A DNA stretch of 64,000 nucleotides, taken from the NCBI RefSeq assembly GCF_009914755.1, contig NC_060927.1, one strand, 5' to 3'. The position numbers and the translations under genes are program-made. The DNA is from the human T2T-CHM13v2.0 reference genome, Homo sapiens. Positions 1 through 52,414 of the stretch are shown here, one piece after another. How positions within the stretch are numbered: the stretch's first letter is position 1; each line of letters starts with the position of its first letter. Under the pieces are notes generated by a model. It was not told the origin of the DNA and ran no database searches. It saw nothing but the letters and a program-made list of their open reading frames with translations.

Positions 1-1381
<1,381 letters not shown>

Positions 1382-2249
1382 TTTGCTCCCTGTACTATTC
1401 CTAACAGTGTATAACTATTGAGTGAAAAAAGTGAGTTTCTACCTGTTGCCTAAAATGATACAAAATCTACATTTGTATTTGCTCATATATACAAAATTAA
1501 CTCTGTAAATATAAGAAATTATATTTGTATTTTATAATATTTATATTAAATTACACATAATTATAATATTTATTGGGGAGCTGGACAGATGGGGTACAAA
1601 ACTAGGAAAAAGACTTCTCCCCATATACCTTTCTTCACTTTCCAGTGTTCTAGGTTTGTGAATATGTTGTCCCTTTGAAATACAAAATTACCTGAGAATA
1701 AATTCAACCAAAGAAAGATGTACAAAGGCATTCTGTATAGAATAAAAGAATTGCAACAAAATTTTTTTATATATTAATATATGTAAATACTACTTTTGTG
1801 CATTGGAGGACTATATAAATATCATAAAGATATCAATACTTTCCCAATCAATACACAGATTCAGTACAATTCCAAATGTGATTTGGAAGACTCAAAATCG
1901 TAACGATATTAGTTATCAAATTTATCTACATAATCAGTGTAGTTTTTAAAAACAGATGATTTGCAGAATTGGACAAGCTGATTCTAAAATTTATTCTGAT
2001 ATGCGAAGGGCCAGGAATAGTCAAGACACTCACAAAAACAAAGAATGAAGAGGACGGATTTGCTGTACCAGCTATCAGTACTAATTATGGAGTTAAACAA
2101 GTTAAAATACTCATGTTTTATAACAATCATGGTAACTGCCTTAAAATGATGATTGTTCAGAAAGTCAGTTTAATTTAGATACTAAGGATATTGAGGTTAT
2201 GTAACATTTGAGCAAGTGCTAGAACCAAAACTCAAGAAATACAATTACA

Positions 2250-3687: not shown

Positions 3688-3959
3688 TTTTTTTTTTAAC
3701 CCAGGCTGGAGTGCAGTGGCATAATCTTGGTTAACTACAACCTCTGCCTCCTGGGTTCAAGAGATTCTTGTGCCTCAACCTCCCGAGTAGCTGGGATTAC
3801 AAGCGCACGCCACCAAGTCCGGCTAATTTTTGTATTCTTAGTAGAGACGGGGTTTTGCCATGTTGGCCAGGCTGATCTCAAACTCCTGGCCTCAAGATCC
3901 ACCCACCTCGACCTCCCAAAGTGCTGGGATTACAGGAGTGAGTCAGTGCACCTGACTCA
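3688..3959 (-). mobile_element. Alu
   Basis: Alu consensus with TSD CTTTTCAGTTTATAA at 3673-3687 and 3960-3974. Confidence 0.9.
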
Positions 3960-5051
3960 CTTTTCAGTTTATAAAGCACTTCCACCGTATCACTAATCCT
4001 GAGAGGCAATTAATTGCTGCCCTATCTTTAAAGAGTAAATAGAGGCTGAGAGAGGTTCCAGCAACTGGCCCCAAGCCATCCAGTTCACTTGGACAGCCAG
4101 GATCCTAAAACGAATTTTACCATGCCACGTCCCTGGTATGCTCCGGCACAACACAGTTTAAAAAGTTCTTATATTGCATTAAACTTTTACATGATTCCTT
4201 AAAAAATCAGAGCCTGAGAATGTTATACTAAAGTTGTAATATAATGTACGCTGAAACTCGACAGCATGTTTTATCAGATCTAGTTAATGTCCTAGGAGTC
4301 ATGCTAAGAAAATCACATACACTCATTGCCAGAGTTCATACACCAGAACACAGGTTAATCAAATCATAGTGCGACCATGATTAGGACAGAACAGTTTCGG
4401 AATGACATACAGAATGGCTCCACTCTGAGAAGGAAAAAAATGTATATAAAATAGTGTGGAAGCACTACTCTCAATGTGACTCAAAGTGTGGTGCACAGAC
4501 AAGACTATTTCTTACCATTGACAAAGACGTTAGTTTAAAAACTGAAAGTGCTTAAAAACTTCAAAGCAATTTGACAATTCCACAACATCCAAGCATGCAA
4601 TCACTGGTCTCATTTTGCAAATAAGAGTATGAAAAAGTTGGAGATGCAGGTGGGACAGCTGCACAGTAGTCATGCACTGTAGGAGTACTTGTTAATGTGC
4701 GATTTAACAGCTTTACTGAGGTATAACTTATATAAAATCAATGCATATATTTAAAGTGTACAAATAGACACATTTGGCATATGTATACACCTGTGAAATC
4801 ATCACTGCAATCAAGATAACAAAAGCCCTCCAGTGTTTCCTCCATGTCCTTTTGTAATCCCTCTTTCCTACTTACTTCTTTCCTCTCCTCCCCAGAAAGC
4901 CATCAATTTACTTTCTGTCATTAGCATGTATTTTCTAAATTTTATGTTGATCATATACTATATTAGATCATACACTATATATTCTTTTTTGTCTGGCTTC
5001 TTTCAGCATAATGCATTTGAGATTCATCCATGTTGCTGCATATATCAATAA

Positions 5052-48440: not shown

Positions 48441-48954
48441 TAAGATGCTTATAGGGTCTGCAACCACAATTTTTCCTGTTCACTGAGAGTAAACCTAATA
48501 GAGAATTTAGGATTCATCTTACACTTGAAATTTTGTTACTGATTATTGAAAAATTATCTACAAGCACCCAATTGTGAGTTTTACAGAAACCTGGTCTCAA
48601 GAGTTATGAACCAAAGATTCACTCCACGGGGTTCCCAGATCCCCTAAAATCATGTGCTAGGTGTTGACTTTATTTTTCTGGAGAGACTATAATGGTTTTC
48701 ATTCATCTTATTCATCTCAAATGGTAAAAATCACCAGTGGAATGGAGCCACACATCCTGTAGCAGAAACTTCTAAAAAAAAAAAAAAAACAGGAAAAAGA
48801 TGAAACATGGTACCATGTACCTGCTCAGCCTCCACAGATCCTGCTTTTGGAAACTGAAACATAAATTCTTAAAACTTGCACAACTTTTTTTCTGGTGCTT
48901 GAATGACCTCTAGTGGCTACTTAAATTATCACAGCCAATTGCTCACAGCAGGAA

Positions 48955-49001
48955 TTAGGTTGGTGCAAAAGTAATTACAGTTTTTGCCATTAAAAGTAAT
49001 G
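48955..49001. mobile_element. Truncated MADE1 (Hsmar1-derived MITE), one TIR plus spacer
   Basis: TTAGGTTGGTGCAAAAGTAATTACAGTTTTTGCCATTAAAAGTAATG; the second TIR is missing. Confidence 0.85.
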
Positions 49002-49266
49002 AAATAAAGAACTAAAAAGTGTTGAGAAATAACAAAATTAAGATGGCATCACAAAGGAGCGCCTAGCTCAATTTCAAGTTATTATACAAGCTCTCTATTA
49101 TCCAACCAAATGTAGTTCACAATACAGTGTAATTCAAAATAGTTCACCAGATAGTTCAGTACACGCCATTTTTTTTAATCAAATAAGTATGATTTTCCCT
49201 AAATTCTTGCATTTCGAACTAATAAAGCATCAGCAAATACCCATGAAGAGAACAGTACTGGAATAA

Positions 49267-49620
49267 AAGATACAAGAACCTCGGGAATTAACATCCACCC
49301 TTTCCTCTCAGTTGAGGCAGCACCAGGAATACAATGTCAACAAAGTACAACAACTGGAGTAAGAGAAATACTTTGAGAATATAAACTGGCCACAGAACTC
49401 AACCTGAGTGAGAACAGGTAACAAATATGGTTCAGGAACTGCTGGGCCAAACTCTCCAAGTGGGAGTACAGCAGCAGCAACAGCAAGTACCAGTAGAATG
49501 GTCACATCACCCAGGGTGACCAACAGGTCCCAGGTTACTTCACATGCCCTCTGCCCAGCCCCTTGACAATTCCTGCAGCAGCAAAACACACCATCTTCCA
49601 GGCACTGCCACACGGAGTCC
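49267..49620 (+). pseudogene. Decayed processed pseudogene of a TPRX-like (PRD-class/ETCHbox) homeobox gene
   Basis: Manual translation gives IQEP...LRQHQEYNVNKVQQLE*EKYFEN, then after a frameshift KLATELNLSENR*QIWFRNCWAKLSK, then QQQQQQVP and PLTIPAAAKHTIF. These blocks are colinear with TPRX1 as recalled. Confidence 0.75.
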
Positions 49621-49639
49621 CAAGAATGCTGATACAGTT

Positions 49640-49830
49640 TTATTTATTTTGAAATATTTGTCAGTATCTATACATACACAAGGCACTGTCTAGGCACTGG
49701 AGTGGAGTGTTGAACAAGACAGTTCAAAATCCCGATTCCAATGGAGCTTGTAGTCTAGTGTGGAAAGAGAAATAAATACATAAAATGCCAGGTGGTGATA
49801 CATGCTGTGAAAAAGATAAAGTAGAACAAT
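49640..49830 (-). mobile_element. L2 3' end fragment
   Basis: Minus strand CTAGACTACAAGCTCCAT...GTCTTGTTCA...CCAGTGCCTAGACAGTGCC resembles the L2 3' terminus. Confidence 0.75.
49668..49754 (-). CDS. ULK4: L2-derived alternative terminal exon of ULK4, coding part TTSSIGIGILNCLVQHSTPVPRQCLVYV*
   Basis: Acceptor tttctctttccacactag|ACT is in phase 0 with the 51331 donor. It gives 28 codons plus TAG, with overlapping AATAAA signals at 49639-49648. The sequence resembles an L2 3' end. Confidence 0.7.
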   Translation of the reverse strand, partial: TTSSIGIGILNCLVQHSTPVPRQCLVYV

Positions 49831-50619
49831 GGGGTTTGGAAATTACAGGGTGGCCGTAGTATTCTTTTCTATAAGTTGATCATCTCAATTCAGACTAGCT
49901 TTTCTTCAAGCACTCAATAGCCATAGTGGCTGGTGGCTACTATACTGGATAGTTCAACAAATCTGAAACTATCATCCATGCCTTTTTAGTTCATAATCTT
50001 TATCCTCTTTCTTTCTGAATCCTAAGAGAATTCATCCAACTGATCTTCAAATTCACTAACTCAGCTTCCTAAAGTATCCATCCTACTTATTACTTATTAC
50101 TGCAACTACTGAATCATTTAATTCAACAGTCATATTTCACATATTCAGAGGCTCCTTCTTCACAGCTCCTGAGCAACCAATGCCTGCTCTGACGATGCAG
50201 GAACATCCTCTAAAATCTTGGCACTTTGTCTTGGACTTTAAGTTCTCTCCCATCTCCTACAGCTACTCCATCTCATTGGAGACCTTTTGCTCTGAGCCAT
50301 CAGAAGGAACCCCCGTTTTTGAGATCCTAAGCCTTCTCATCTTCCTGGTAATACTGCCCTAGATGCTCAATCTTTCAGACAAAAATCTACCTGACACATC
50401 TCTGAGAACCAAGCTGGGTACCATCAGTAATCATATAGGTCACAATTCATTTTTTTAGGCCCCCCAAAAAAGGAAAAATTTAGACTTTGTGGCATTTTAC
50501 TAGTAACTCAGAGATCCAGCAGTTTGCAGGAAATAGAGATGGAATTGTAAGCAAGGGAAATACAGTGAAATTAAATTAATCTCCACCCAGACACTATAAG
50601 GCCAGCTGGGATACTATCC

Positions 50620-50758
50620 CAGCAATTGGCTGCTGCAGTGAACAGCACAGAGAGAAAATGTTCCAATTCCTCTTAAGGCTCCAAATACCAGTTGGCTACT
50701 ACAGTGGACAAGACAGACATAGAAATTTTTCCAATTTTTCTTAAAGCCCCAAATACCA
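50620..50758 (+). repeat. Old ~70 bp tandem duplication
   Basis: TTGGCTGCTGCAGTGAAC...TTCCAATTCCTCTTAAGGCTCCAAATACCA is followed by TTGGCTACTACAGTGGAC...TTCCAATTTTTCTTAAAGCCCCAAATACCA. Confidence 0.75.
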
Positions 50759-51330
50759 CACAACCAGCTTCAACTCTACAAAATCCCCTCTCCTTACCCC
50801 TTTTTTACTTCCTTCAGGAGCTCTTGCTGTTTCCCCTAAAAGCCTTGGTTCTTTTCACCTATGCTGACTCTTGAGCCTCTCCCAGTTCAAGGGATAAAAC
50901 TCCATTACCAATTAAGTGTAACATACGTTAACGGAATAGGTAGAAAGTAATCTTTCATACGAAAACACTACATTCAAGGTGAAAGGCCAAAATAATTTGA
51001 ATTTTGAATTGTAAGCTATGCTTTAACTAGGAAATACATTAGTCTGTTGGACAGACTATAAGAAAACTAGAAATGAAAAAAGCCTTATTCAAAAACAAAT
51101 GAAATAATGATGAGTAGAGTTCATAAGCCTTGTTAACTCTGCTGTGCCATTTTAATGATGGACTACATTGTATATGTGCTGCTATGTTTAAGCCTAAAGG
51201 TCTGTTGAGGTAACAGTTTTAGAACGATTGCCACAATCCCACAGGTCGGTGAAAGCTGCAGGTTCCAAATTACAGAATCAAGAACAGTATTTCTTGACAT
51301 TCATCACATTTAAGTAATAAAAGACATTAC

Positions 51331-51409
51331 CTCAACAACAGGTGTATTTTCCTGGAGCTCAGTTGTGTGCGAAGCCAGTAAACCAATCACGTGAGCAACC
51401 TTGGCCCGT
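51331..51409 (-). CDS. ULK4: ULK4 coding exon (probably exon 17), 79 nt, RAKVAHVIGLLASHTTELQENTPVVE
   Basis: Minus strand reads ttctctccatttacag|ACGGGCCAAG...GTTGTTGAG|gtaatg. The frame is continuous with both flanking exons. Confidence 0.95.
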
Positions 51410-52414
51410 CTGTAAATGGAGAGAAAACAGGCTCTGAAAAGAAGAGTCGGGGACCGAGGAAACTAATCCCAGCTAGTTACATTATGCAATGATGAGCATT
51501 AGATATAAGACTGAGAAATAAAAATTGAATGTGACAGGTCAGGCCCACACTCCCACATGTACACAGCCCAGAGAAACTCTCCCTCGTATACTTAGGGAGA
51601 CACGAACCGTAATGTCCGCTGCAATACTGCAACAGCGACAAAATTTAAACAAGTTGTGGTTTAATAGTAAAACGAAAAATAAAAATTTTAAAAATCTTTA
51701 ACCAGAGAAAAGAGCAAAACAGTAATTAATCCTTTTATTGCTGAGTACAGAGGCATTTGGCTAAAGGTCTCTTTTCTACTTGTTAGTAGATCAATGAGTT
51801 TCTATGTAAGTAGTAAATAATATCTGAACAGTAACATATCTGTATGTATTCAGTGTAAAAGAAATTTTTACAATCAAGTTTTTAAATATTGTTATTTGCA
51901 TAAACACTAGTTTTAATGAGGTGTTCCTTTAGTATCCAGCAGAAAACTGAAGTGGATAAATTACTATTAAATGACATTCAATGTGATTTGAAAAGGTATT
52001 TCATGCAGAGAAATTAGTTTTGATGAGTTTTTTTCTAATTAAAACAAATGGTGAGTTGATGAAAACTGCACTCTTATTTAGTGATGTCTGCATGTTGTCT
52101 AGGATAATCAGTATGTACCTTAGTCAGCTTTTATTTTTTACCATCTTAAAATAAACCTATGTGGTACCCATGGAGGAAAACAAATCAGACTCAGAGAAGT
52201 ACTACAGGGAAAATGTCTGCGTTATCACAACTCTAACATACAGAAATAATCCTTATAAATTTCAACACTTCTTAAATTGCCCATTAAAATCTCTTAACCT
52301 ACACAAATTAAAGAAGTCCTAGGCAATTGTAGAATTAGCATCCCACCTGTGAATAAAAAGATTATACTTTAAAAGTAGTCATTTTGAAAAATATCTGTAG
52401 GACAATTGGAAAAG

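What the first reader, a model, noticed from the sequence alone, without database searches (positions are those of the whole stretch)
49267..49620. Hidden relic of a TPRX-like (ETCHbox) homeobox retrocopy in the ULK4 intron
Seen: the + strand frame from 49270 reads IQEPRELTSTLSSQLRQHQEYNVNKVQQLE*EKYFEN. After a frameshift and a ~10-codon loss, the frame from 49383 reads KLATELNLSENR*QIWFRNCWAKLSK, then QQQQQQVP (~49468-49491) and PLTIPAAAKHTIF (49560-49598). Recalled TPRX1 has MQDP...RRQRQERTVYTESQQKVLEFYFQ...LAEMLSLREQQLQVWFKNRRAKLAR..LQQQPQRVP...PSGILPAAEPTIC, so several blocks match in order, including non-homeodomain ones. Lesions are simple: NRRAK to NCWAK is two CpG transitions, both stops sit at Leu positions (TTA to TAA), and ATG became ATA. 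The PRD-class intron between homeodomain codons 46 and 47 is absent, implying retrotransposition. Inference: it is an old copy of an embryo/germline-expressed TPRX mRNA, or of a lost paralogue. Residue 50 is Arg (AGG), as in ARGFX, but one change from Lys. I do not recall a homeobox pseudogene annotated here.
Basis: partly seen in the sequence, partly recalled or inferred. Interest (0 to 1): 0.85.

Follow-up and report, generated by a model that had tools for sequence, protein, structure and literature searches.

The report
Decayed TPRX homeobox retrocopy in ULK4
A roughly 390-base stretch inside a ULK4 intron is the dead, badly eroded copy of a spliced messenger RNA from the embryo-expressed TPRX homeobox gene family; it is an ordinary kind of genomic fossil that the gene tables and catalogues I could read do not list.

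Summary
Window 49239-49629 (+ strand, antisense to ULK4) is an old processed pseudogene of a TPRX-family (ETCHbox, PRD-class) homeobox gene.

- **Homeodomain:** its second half is far beyond chance. No null chunk of 1399 reached its score, and Pfam Homeodomain gives 23.2 bits.
- **Match to TPRX1:** the spliced human TPRX1 coding sequence aligns to 49398-49596 (E 3.7e-9; next window hit E 0.2). The alignment crosses the codon 46/47 exon junction without a gap and runs 140 bases past the homeobox.
- **Siblings:** two unlinked, equally decayed relics (chr11:74.36 Mb and chr10:111.2 Mb in T2T) share the 5' leader, start codon, homeobox and a post-homeobox motif.
- **Tree:** a homeobox DNA tree puts all of them with TPRX1/TPRX2/TPRXL (aLRT 99.5, UFBoot 95). 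AU tests do not reject the other placements.
- **Damage:** Four chr15 duplicates share this damage.
- **Missing:** no 3' half, poly(A) tail or tetrapeptide repeats.
- **Untested:** PARGFX sequences and other mammals' genomes were not available.

This is a new member of a known kind and is most likely functionless.

The parts
49239..49269 (+). Stretch derived from the 5' untranslated leader of the parent mRNA
   Evidence: DNA homology with the chr11 relic begins at 49239. The five-way alignment with TPRX1 exon 1 and TPRXL shows a shared leader just before the start codon.
49270..49272 (+). Disabled start codon (ATA)
   Evidence: It aligns with ATG in TPRX1, TPRXL and the chr11 relic, followed by CAA GA in those three and in the relic itself; the chr10 relic reads AGG CAA AAA there. 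The four chr15 copies have the same ATA.
49270..49314 (+). Coding remnant ahead of the homeodomain (IQEPRELTSTLSSQL). It spans the place of the parental exon 1/exon 2 junction with no intron.
   Evidence: TPRX1 exon 1 and exon 2 lie about 830 bases apart in the genome. The relic versus the chr10 relic is 70% identical over 111 columns from 49274.
49315..49380 (+). First part of the homeobox (about homeodomain residues 0-22) in the frame of 49270. It has a TAA stop at 49360-49362 at the Leu16 position and a one-codon deletion.
   Evidence: There is DNA homology to the chr11 and chr10 relics. The direct match to human TPRX1 is only marginal.
49380..49381 (+). Junction of a 28-base deletion that removes about homeodomain residues 23-32 and shifts the frame
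   Evidence: MAFFT alignment of 14 homeobox DNAs. The chr15 copies share the same gap.
49383..49460 (+). Second part of the homeobox (homeodomain 33-58) in the frame of 49272. Features: TAA stop at 49419-49421; the place of the codon 46/47 intron at 49424|49425 is uninterrupted; AGG (Arg50) at 49434-49436; TGC TGG at 49440-49445 in place of Arg-Arg.
   Evidence: Pfam 23.2 bits. 0 of 1399 null chunks reach its score. The blastn alignment to spliced TPRX1 is ungapped across the junction.
49469..49492 (+). Short glutamine run followed by Val-Pro, in the frame of 49271
   Evidence: It aligns with the Gln-rich stretch just after the TPRX1 homeodomain. Tandem Repeats Finder reports a 6-base period at 49468-49486.
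49524..49629 (+). Post-homeodomain region with the conserved TPRX motif (PLTIPAAAKHTIF at 49560-49598). Detectable homology ends here.
   Evidence: Post-homeobox-only DNA queries of TPRX2 (E 0.003), TPRX1 (E 0.021) and the chr11 relic (E 0.022) each have their best window hit here. ARGFX, LEUTX, DPRX and OTX1 have no hit here, and DMBX1 has only a 13-base minus-strand match at E 7.7. The spacing from Trp48 to the motif is 53 codons, against 57 in TPRX1 (counted).

Best explanation
Window 49239-49629 is an ancient processed pseudogene. A spliced mRNA of a TPRX-family homeobox gene (one of the eutherian ETCHbox genes derived from CRX and expressed in the early embryo and germ line) was reverse-transcribed and inserted, antisense, into an intron of ULK4.

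Only the 5' leader, the start codon, the short N-terminus, the homeobox and about 55 codons after it can still be recognised. It has since decayed neutrally:
- the start codon became ATA;
- two TAA stops arose;
- there is one 3-base and one 28-base deletion inside the homeobox;
- there are at least two more frameshifts after it;
- every aligned parental CpG has been lost.

Later the whole intron segment, relic included, was copied to chromosome 15 by segmental duplication. It most likely does nothing today.

Shown here: homology, colinearity, absence of both introns, the lesions, the copies, and the lack of extra conservation. Inferred: reverse transcription by LINE-1 machinery, germ-line or early-embryo expression of the parent at that time, great age, and lack of function.
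For: 1. Homeodomain signal: Pfam PF00046 at 23.2 bits for 49383-49466; all 59 PDB hits are homeodomains; 0 of 1399 null chunks reach the score of the second half.
2. Spliced TPRX1 coding sequence versus the whole window: 49398-49596, 61.7% of 209 columns, E 3.7e-9, next best hit E 0.2. The alignment crosses the exon 2/3 junction without a gap. TPRX2 gives two colinear hits (E 1.6e-6 and 0.004).
3. Post-homeobox-only queries hit the relic for TPRX1, TPRX2 and the chr11 relic, and more weakly for CRX. ARGFX, LEUTX, DPRX and OTX1 do not hit it, and DMBX1 gives only a 13-base minus-strand match at E 7.7.
4. Two unlinked sibling relics exist. The chr11 one has Pfam Homeodomain at 36.5 bits, and its best genome-wide relative is TPRXL (E 4.3e-4). 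The relic is 63-67% identical to it over 49239-49490 plus 49527-49587, and 70% identical to the chr10 relic over 49274-49379. Flanks are not shared.
5. The five-way 5' alignment shows a shared start-codon context and no intron 1.
6. ML tree of 16 homeobox DNAs: the clade TPRX1/2 + TPRXL + all relics has aLRT 99.5 and UFBoot 95; with 14 sequences it has 99.7 and 97.
7. Decay: 0 of 18 TPRX1 CpGs survive, and 10 of them are TG or CA in the relic. GC is 0.52 against 0.70 in the parent. No sense-strand open frame exceeds 57 codons.
8. The chr3 and chr15 copies are 90-91% identical in the relic and 91-93% in the flanks, so there is no sign of constraint.
Against: - No poly(A) remnant was found: no A-run of 7 or more from 49467 to 51500. 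Target-site duplications were not looked for.
- No remnant of the TPRX C-terminal domain lies downstream. No tetrapeptide-repeat array was found.
- Human TPRX1 and TPRXL 5' queries give no DNA hit on the relic's first half, and the protein-level match there is marginal. That half is tied to TPRX only through the sibling relics.
- Homeodomain-only protein scores are nearly equal for TPRX1 (64), TPRXL (65), CRX (65), DMBX1 (63) and ARGFX (61).
- AU tests do not reject grouping the relics with CRX/OTX, ARGFX, LEUTX or DPRX (p 0.11-0.23, delta lnL 10-15).
- PARGFX, which is lost in human, could not be included.
- Age could not be measured, because no other mammalian genome was available.
Confidence: 0.88

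Rival explanations
1. It is a retrocopy of a different or now-lost ETCHbox or CRX-derived paralogue (for example PARGFX, or one of the 'ghost' CRX duplicates), not of the TPRX1/TPRX2 lineage.
For: - The three relics share states that human TPRX1/2/L lack: Lys at homeodomain position 18, Glu at position 15 as in CRX, and His at position 2 as in the ARGFX-type arm.
- In the ML tree the relics fall outside TPRX1/2 + TPRXL and together form a sister group to it, but that grouping is weakly supported (aLRT 59.5, UFBoot 39).
- AU tests do not reject other placements.
- Maeso 2016 reports a retroposed PARGFX copy in primates and ghost CRX duplicates (passages read).
Against: - The clade with the TPRX genes has aLRT 99.5 and UFBoot 95.
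- Post-homeobox DNA similarity is seen with TPRX1/2 and not with ARGFX or LEUTX.
- The Pro41 found in CRX, OTX, ARGFX and DMBX1 is absent from TPRX and from all three relics. The chr11 relic has Tyr8 as TPRX does.
- His2 and the varied residue at position 5 fit CpG decay of Arg codons.
Confidence: 0.08
2. It is a DNA-level secondary copy of another intronless TPRX relic, made by segmental duplication or transposition, rather than its own retrotransposition event.
For: The same stretch was demonstrably copied at DNA level to chr15. No poly(A) tail marks an independent insertion, and target-site duplications were not looked for.
Against: Similarity to the chr11 and chr10 relics is confined to the mRNA-derived part. 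Queries from the flanks (49100-49268, 48850-49100, 49640-49900) hit only the chr15 copies among about 330 kb of fetched human DNA that included both siblings.
Confidence: 0.03
3. It is a chance resemblance in AT-rich intron DNA.
For: The N- and C-terminal blocks are individually marginal against human TPRX proteins.
Against: - 0 of 1399 null chunks reach the score of the homeodomain second half.
- blastn to spliced TPRX1 gives E 3.7e-9.
- There are three colinear DNA matches to an independent chr11 relic.
- Pfam is at the cut-off.
Confidence: 0.005
4. The relic has been co-opted, for example as a regulatory element or as part of a non-coding transcript within ULK4.
For: None was found. The position inside a large, brain-expressed gene leaves room for it.
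Against: The hub's table lists no RefSeq functional element or transcript here. The relic is no better conserved between chr3 and chr15 than its flanks.
Confidence: 0.03

Closest known systems
TPRXL (3p25.1), the known retrotransposed TPRX1-derived locus on the same chromosome
   Same: It is intronless and has the same order of parts: leader, ATG-CAA-GA start, short N-terminus, homeobox, then a Gln-rich stretch. It aligns to the relic at 68-69% identity over 49398-49504. It falls in the same clade in the tree.
   Different: - TPRXL keeps an open 139-codon frame and a full homeodomain at 68.9 bits.
- It is much closer to TPRX1 (58% amino-acid identity over exon 2, E 1.2e-12 genome-wide).
- The relic is far more diverged, broken, truncated and 28 Mb away, and the same search does not find it.
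TPRX1 and TPRX2 (19q13), the functional parents of the family
   Same: The relic shows colinear DNA similarity from homeodomain residue ~39 to the LPAAEP-type motif. It has the same start context. Spacing to the motif is similar.
   Different: - The parents have introns after the first coding exon and between homeodomain codons 46 and 47.
- They have long Pro-rich tetrapeptide repeats and a C-terminal domain.
- The relic has none of these.
Other ETCHbox processed pseudogenes (DPRXP1-7, ARGFXP1/2, TPRX1P1/2, and the LEUTX and PARGFX retrocopies)
   Same: They arose by the same process from the same class of parent. Lewin 2021 states that ETCHbox genes frequently spawn dispersed retrocopies, and its Table S3b lists the chromosomes of the human ones.
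   Different: - The listed human TPRX retrocopies are on chromosomes 3 and 10 only, given as chromosome numbers.
- Holland 2007 places them at 3p25.1 and 10q22.3, the latter without a homeobox.
- None is listed at 3p22, 11q13 (other than PHOX2A), 10q25 or 15q13.
Sibling relics found here: chr11:74,364,7xx (-) and chr10:111,226,3xx (-) in T2T-CHM13
   Same: They are equally decayed, intronless TPRX-like copies sharing leader, start codon, homeobox and post-homeobox motif with the relic.
   Different: - They lie on different chromosomes and their flanks are unrelated.
- The chr11 copy keeps a full-length homeobox with two compensating frameshifts.
- Both siblings read AKY after the homeodomain, where the relic and TPRX1 read AKL.

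Membership tests
Homeodomain (Pfam PF00046) | Score at or above the curated cut-off of 22.9 bits | tested here: met
   The 28-residue piece 49383-49466 scores 23.2 bits, E 6.2e-5. The whole 117-residue frame scores 20.1 bits, below the cut-off. Only profile positions 32-54 of 57 are matched, so this is a fragment.
Homeodomain (Pfam PF00046) | Intact 60-residue domain with the helix-3 motif WF.NRR.K | tested here: not met
   The helix-3 motif reads WFRNCWAK. There are two stops and a 28-base deletion removing about residues 23-32. It is a relic of a homeobox, not a working one.
PRD class, OTX/CRX-derived ETCHbox group | Parents carry an intron between homeodomain codons 46 and 47; residue 50 is Lys; they group with CRX/OTX in trees | tested here: met
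   The intron position was verified in TPRX1, TPRX2, CRX, ARGFX, LEUTX, DPRX, OTX1 and DMBX1 from the genome. The relic groups inside this set. Residue 50 is AGG (Arg), one change from the AAG of TPRX and the chr11 relic.
TPRX family | Groups with TPRX1/TPRX2/TPRXL rather than the other ETCHbox families | tested here: met
   The clade has aLRT 99.5 and UFBoot 95 with 16 sequences. AU tests do not reject the alternatives (p 0.11-0.23), and PARGFX is missing, so support is good but not decisive.
TPRX family | Sequence outside the homeodomain: the MQDP-type start and the post-homeodomain Gln-rich stretch and LPAAEP-type motif at the right spacing | tested here: met
   Start context. Post-homeobox DNA hits are seen with TPRX1/2, not with ARGFX, LEUTX, DPRX or OTX1, and for DMBX1 only as a 13-base chance-level match. 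Spacing is 53 codons against 57. Each block is weak on its own.
TPRX family | Tetrapeptide (Pro-rich) repeat region and C-terminal domain | tested here: not met
   No 12-base-period array lies in 49200-50400. There is no match to the last 95 residues of TPRX1/2 near the relic. Either this part was lost or it was never copied; the repeats may also postdate the insertion.
Processed pseudogene (retrocopy) | Parental introns absent | tested here: met
   Both junctions (exon 1/2 and homeodomain codon 46/47) are uninterrupted.
Processed pseudogene (retrocopy) | Poly(A) tail and target-site duplications | tested here: not met
   No A-run of 7 or more lies downstream to 51500. Duplications were not searched for. 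The 3' half of the mRNA is missing, so these marks may be lost.
Processed pseudogene (retrocopy) | Unlinked to the parent; reading frame disabled | tested here: met
   The relic is on chr3 and the parents are on chr19. ATA start, two stops and several frameshifts. The longest sense open frame is 57 codons.
PARGFX / ARGFX | ARGFX-type homeodomain (Phe8, Pro41, WFRNRRFK) and an OTX-type domain after it | tested here: not met
   ARGFX lies far from the relics in the tree. There is no post-homeobox similarity. The relics lack Pro41. PARGFX itself could not be tested, because no sequence was available.

The most novel reading that the evidence does not exclude
The ULK4 relic and its chr11 and chr10 siblings may be three independent retro-fossils of an early eutherian TPRX gene, or of a TPRX paralogue since lost. 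They would have been frozen soon after the family split from CRX and before TPRXL was made. Together they would preserve states intermediate between CRX and modern TPRX (Glu15, Lys18), letting the ancestral protein of a very fast-evolving embryonic transcription factor be inferred. They would also show that the gene was already transcribed in germ-line or totipotent cells at that time.
Probability: 0.3. Interest if true: 0.55.

Novelty: new member of a known kind. Interest (0 to 1): 0.33.

Why it matters
ETCHbox genes evolve so fast that their early history is hard to read from living genes. Old retrocopies are dated snapshots of the mRNA, including the very short first coding exon, which the published surveys say they could often identify only through retrocopies (Maeso 2016 and Lewin 2021, passages).

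This relic and the two siblings found with it are missed by an ordinary protein search with human TPRX1 exon 2: none of them is among the 53 matches at E<=1. They are absent from the lists I could read. They would therefore add up to seven homeobox-derived loci (three insertions plus four chr15 duplicates) to the human catalogue. They also provide an older outgroup for reconstructing the TPRX ancestor.

Otherwise it is an ordinary, functionless processed pseudogene, with no sign of any effect on ULK4.

Tried and rejected
- **Chr13 locus (L016):** it was raised by the genome protein search (E 0.72) and shares an 18-residue look-alike with 49497-49550. It shows no DNA similarity to the relic, TPRX1 or the siblings, so it is chance.
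- **Chr19:51.46 Mb and chr22 hits:** the first shows no homeobox reading in any of the six frames and the second is DUX4-like.
- **Misreading of the chr15 copies:** I first read them as restoring an Arg codon at homeodomain position 2. That was wrong: they have GAC (Asp) where chr3 has CAC.
- **Interspersed repeat next to the relic:** I suspected from memory that 49650-49890 is an old repeat that might mark the 3' boundary. The genome search found only the chr15 copies. A sensitive blastn against about 330 kb of human DNA found no other copy. I make no such claim.
- **Whole-genome Pfam Homeodomain search:** it listed only the 150 best of 1256 candidates (HOX, DUX4 and similar), so it could not locate ETCHbox genes. 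A degenerate helix-3 pattern did.
- **Protein database search for non-human TPRX relatives with the TPRXL frame:** 13 candidates, none at E<=1e-5. No other species could be brought in.
- **Frameshift-aware alignment at strict penalties (11/1/12):** it does not link the N-terminal block to the rest. It does so only at 8/1/8, where nulls were run.
- **The search of earlier findings:** not open.

Full report
**What is there.** The window is T2T-CHM13 chr3:41,850,001-41,914,000, inside ULK4, which runs on the minus strand.
- The frame of 49270 reads IQEPRELTSTLSSQLRQHQEYNVNKVQQLE*EKYFEN.
- The frame of 49272 reads KLATELNLSENR*QIWFRNCWAKLSK from 49383.
- A short Gln run plus Val-Pro sits at 49469-49492 in the frame of 49271.
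- PLTIPAAAKHTIF sits at 49560-49598, again in the frame of 49272.

**Is it more than chance?**
- Pfam Homeodomain matches the 49272 frame at E 5.7e-4 and 20.1 bits. It matches the 28-residue piece alone at 23.2 bits, just over the 22.9 cut-off.
- All 59 PDB chains found at E<=10 are homeodomains.
- I wrote a local protein-to-DNA aligner that allows frameshifts and ran it, at penalties 8/1/8, over all 212 non-overlapping 600-base chunks of the window on both strands. The relic chunk is first for TPRX1 (82; next 61), TPRX2 (99; next 78) and TPRXL (83; next 53).
- Block by block, the homeodomain second half scores 58, with 0 of 1399 null chunks as high (Gumbel P 3.5e-7).
- The N-terminal block is marginal: 12 of 684 null chunks are as good for TPRXL and 27 of 684 for TPRX1.
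- The C-terminal block is also marginal: 28 of 616 for TPRX2 and 166 of 616 for TPRX1.

**Getting real comparison sequences.** No reference proteins could be typed, so I located the genes in the window's own genome.
- A Pfam search of the genome listed only the top 150 of 1256 candidates.
- A degenerate helix-3 DNA pattern gave 94 hits against 53 for the reversed control. Among the hits were TPRX1, CRX, TPRX2, LEUTX and DPRX on chr19, ARGFX and TPRXL on chr3, and OTX1, OTX2 and DMBX1 (gene names assigned by me from position and sequence).
- I fetched these loci and read the exons by tblastn with the intronless TPRXL frame.
- In TPRX1, the homeobox is split between codons 46 and 47 by about 520 bases. 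A short first coding exon lies about 830 bases upstream of exon 2.

**DNA-level colinearity with spliced TPRX.**
- The spliced TPRX1 coding sequence, searched against the whole window, aligns to 49398-49596. Identity is 61.7% over 209 columns and E is 3.7e-9. The next window hit has E 0.2.
- The alignment passes the exon 2/3 junction (relic 49424|49425) without a gap and continues about 140 bases past the homeobox.
- TPRX2 gives two colinear hits (E 1.6e-6 and 0.004). CRX gives only the homeobox (E 2e-4) plus a weak 36-base hit.
- With post-homeobox-only queries, the best window hit lies inside 49469-49596 for TPRX1 (E 0.021), TPRX2 (0.003), CRX (0.058) and the chr11 relic (0.022). ARGFX, LEUTX, DPRX and OTX1 have no hit there, and DMBX1 has only a 13-base minus-strand match at E 7.7.
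- From Trp48 to the motif is 53 codons in the relic and 57 in TPRX1.
- Against this, 5'-only queries from TPRX1 and TPRXL give no hit on the relic's first half.

**Sibling relics.**
- A genome-wide search with the relic's frame raised chr11:74,364,735-74,364,821 (-) at E 1.05.
- Read out, this locus holds a full-length intronless homeobox. Pfam gives it 36.5 bits. It has two compensating frameshifts.
- Its best genome-wide relative is TPRXL (E 4.3e-4). Next is a further relic at chr10:111,226,308-111,226,490 (-), at E 0.01.
- The ULK4 relic matches the chr11 relic in three colinear DNA segments: 49239-49414 (E 1.9e-6), 49383-49490 (E 1.3e-8) and 49527-49587 (E 0.038).
- It matches the chr10 relic at 70% identity over 49274-49379 (E 1.2e-7).
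- The flanks are unrelated: queries from 48850-49268 and 49640-49900 hit only the chr15 copies.
- A five-way alignment of the 5' ends shows the start context. The relic has AAG ATA CAA GAA CCT, the chr11 relic AGG ATG CAA GAA GCA, the chr10 relic AGG AGG CAA AAA CTT, and TPRXL and TPRX1 AGG ATG CAA GAC CCT.
- So the relic contains leader, start codon, exon 1, exon 2 and exon 3 sequence in one piece. That is the mark of a spliced mRNA.

**Family.**
- Homeodomain-only protein scores do not discriminate: TPRX1 64, TPRXL 65, CRX 65, DMBX1 63, ARGFX 61, OTX1 60, DPRX 50.
- An ML tree (HKY+F+G4) of homeobox DNA puts TPRX1/2, TPRXL and all relics in one clade. Support is aLRT 99.7 and UFBoot 97 with 14 sequences, and 99.5 and 95 with 16, including LEUTX and OTX2.
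- The relics fall outside TPRX1/2 + TPRXL. Their own grouping is weak (59.5/39).
- AU tests favour the TPRX placement (p 0.92) but do not reject CRX/OTX, ARGFX, LEUTX or DPRX (p 0.11-0.23; delta lnL 10-15).
- PARGFX, which is lost in human, could not be obtained. The protein database search returned nothing.

**Lesions**:
- ATA in place of ATG;
- TAA at 49360-49362, at the Leu16 position;
- a one-codon deletion near homeodomain positions 8-11;
- a single 28-base deletion at 49380|49381, which explains both the frameshift and the loss of about ten codons;
- TAA at 49419-49421 (position 45: Leu in TPRX1, Val in TPRXL and the chr11 relic);
- TGC TGG in place of two Arg codons, a CpG transition from the CGC CGG seen in TPRXL;
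- at least two further frame changes after the homeodomain.

Arg50 (AGG) is one step from the AAG of TPRX and the chr11 relic, and the chr10 relic has ATG, so it is probably a later change. Of 18 CpGs in the aligned TPRX1 sequence, none survives and 10 are TG or CA. GC is 0.52 against 0.70 in the parent. No sense-strand open frame exceeds 57 codons.

**What is missing.**
- There is no match to the TPRX C-terminal domain downstream.
- There is no 12-base-period repeat.
- There is no A-run of 7 or more up to 51500.

**Copies.** Four chr15 loci (27.92, 28.39, 28.45 and 30.20 Mb) carry the same stretch at 89-90% identity. They share ATA, both stops, the 28-base deletion and AGG, so the damage predates that segmental duplication. 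Identity is 90-91% in the relic and 91-93% in the flanks, so nothing suggests constraint. From memory, these are the ULK4 pseudogene copies of 15q13; I did not check this.

**Literature.**
- Holland et al. 2007 (PMC2211742; passages and the PRD table read) list the Tprx family at 19q13.32 (two loci), 10q22.3 (two loci without a homeobox) and 3p25.1. '3p22', '10q25' and '15q13' occur 0 times, and 11q13 occurs only for PHOX2A.
- Zhong and Holland 2011 (PMC3141429; passages) give the same five loci.
- Lewin et al. 2021 (PMC8208926; passages and spreadsheet Tables S3a and S3b) list human TPRX retrocopies on chromosomes 3 and 10, PARGFX on 10 and 17, and none on 11 or 15. Only chromosome numbers are given, so '3' is ambiguous.
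- Maeso et al. 2016 (PMC4904359; passages and one spreadsheet) give no coordinates.
- The PDF supplements of both papers could not be read.
- A full-text search for TPRX together with ULK4 found 0 papers.
- The hub's RefSeq table has no entry here.
- A protein search of the genome with human TPRX1 exon 2 returns TPRX1, TPRX2 and TPRXL. It does not return the relic or its siblings among 53 matches at E<=1. That explains how they could be overlooked.

**Verdict.** This is a real, old, dead processed pseudogene of the TPRX family, a new member of a well-known kind. It has modest value as a molecular fossil, and more so taken together with its two siblings.

Noticed in passing
L017 (G000:C11:74363235-74366321), about 1292-1750, minus strand: A second decayed, intronless TPRX-like retrocopy lies on chr11 (T2T 74.36 Mb). 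It has a full-length homeobox (Pfam 36.5 bits), an intact ATG, two TGA stops and two compensating frameshifts. It is not at any locus listed in Holland 2007 or on a chromosome listed for TPRX in Lewin 2021 Table S3b.
   Followed up: partly
L044 (G000:C10:111224808-111227990), about 1500-1720, minus strand: A third TPRX-like relic lies on chr10 (T2T 111.2 Mb). It has several frameshifts, reads ESQQ as in TPRX1, and has WFMNQQAK in helix 3. It may or may not be one of the chr10 retrocopies (TPRX or PARGFX) that Lewin 2021 lists by chromosome number only.
   Followed up: partly
G000:C15:27921120-27921621, 28391568-28392069, 28454280-28454797, 30204968-30205469: There are four chr15 copies of this part of the ULK4 intron at 89-94% identity. 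One of them (28.45 Mb) carries private insertions. Each holds its own copy of the homeobox relic.
   Followed up: partly
L028 (G000:C17:33093000-33100999), about 3700-4050, minus strand: The chr17 ARGFX-like copy has about 120 bases inserted exactly between homeodomain codons 46 and 47. This looks like a retained or degenerate intron rather than a clean retrocopy.
   Followed up: no
window 48950-49000: This short stretch reminded me, from memory only, of a mariner-type miniature inverted-repeat element. I did not test this.
   Followed up: no
window 49528-49563: A 36-base, 75% match to the region of CRX after its homeodomain is the best window hit of that query (E 0.058). It is either chance or a trace of the CRX ancestry of TPRX.
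   Followed up: no
G000:C6:37952154, C20:1074599, C18:12436392 (pattern hits; loci L032-L034): These are helix-3-like WFKN.RAK pattern hits outside the genes I recognised. CRX exon 2 found no homeodomain first half in them. Possible further homeobox relics were not examined.
   Followed up: no
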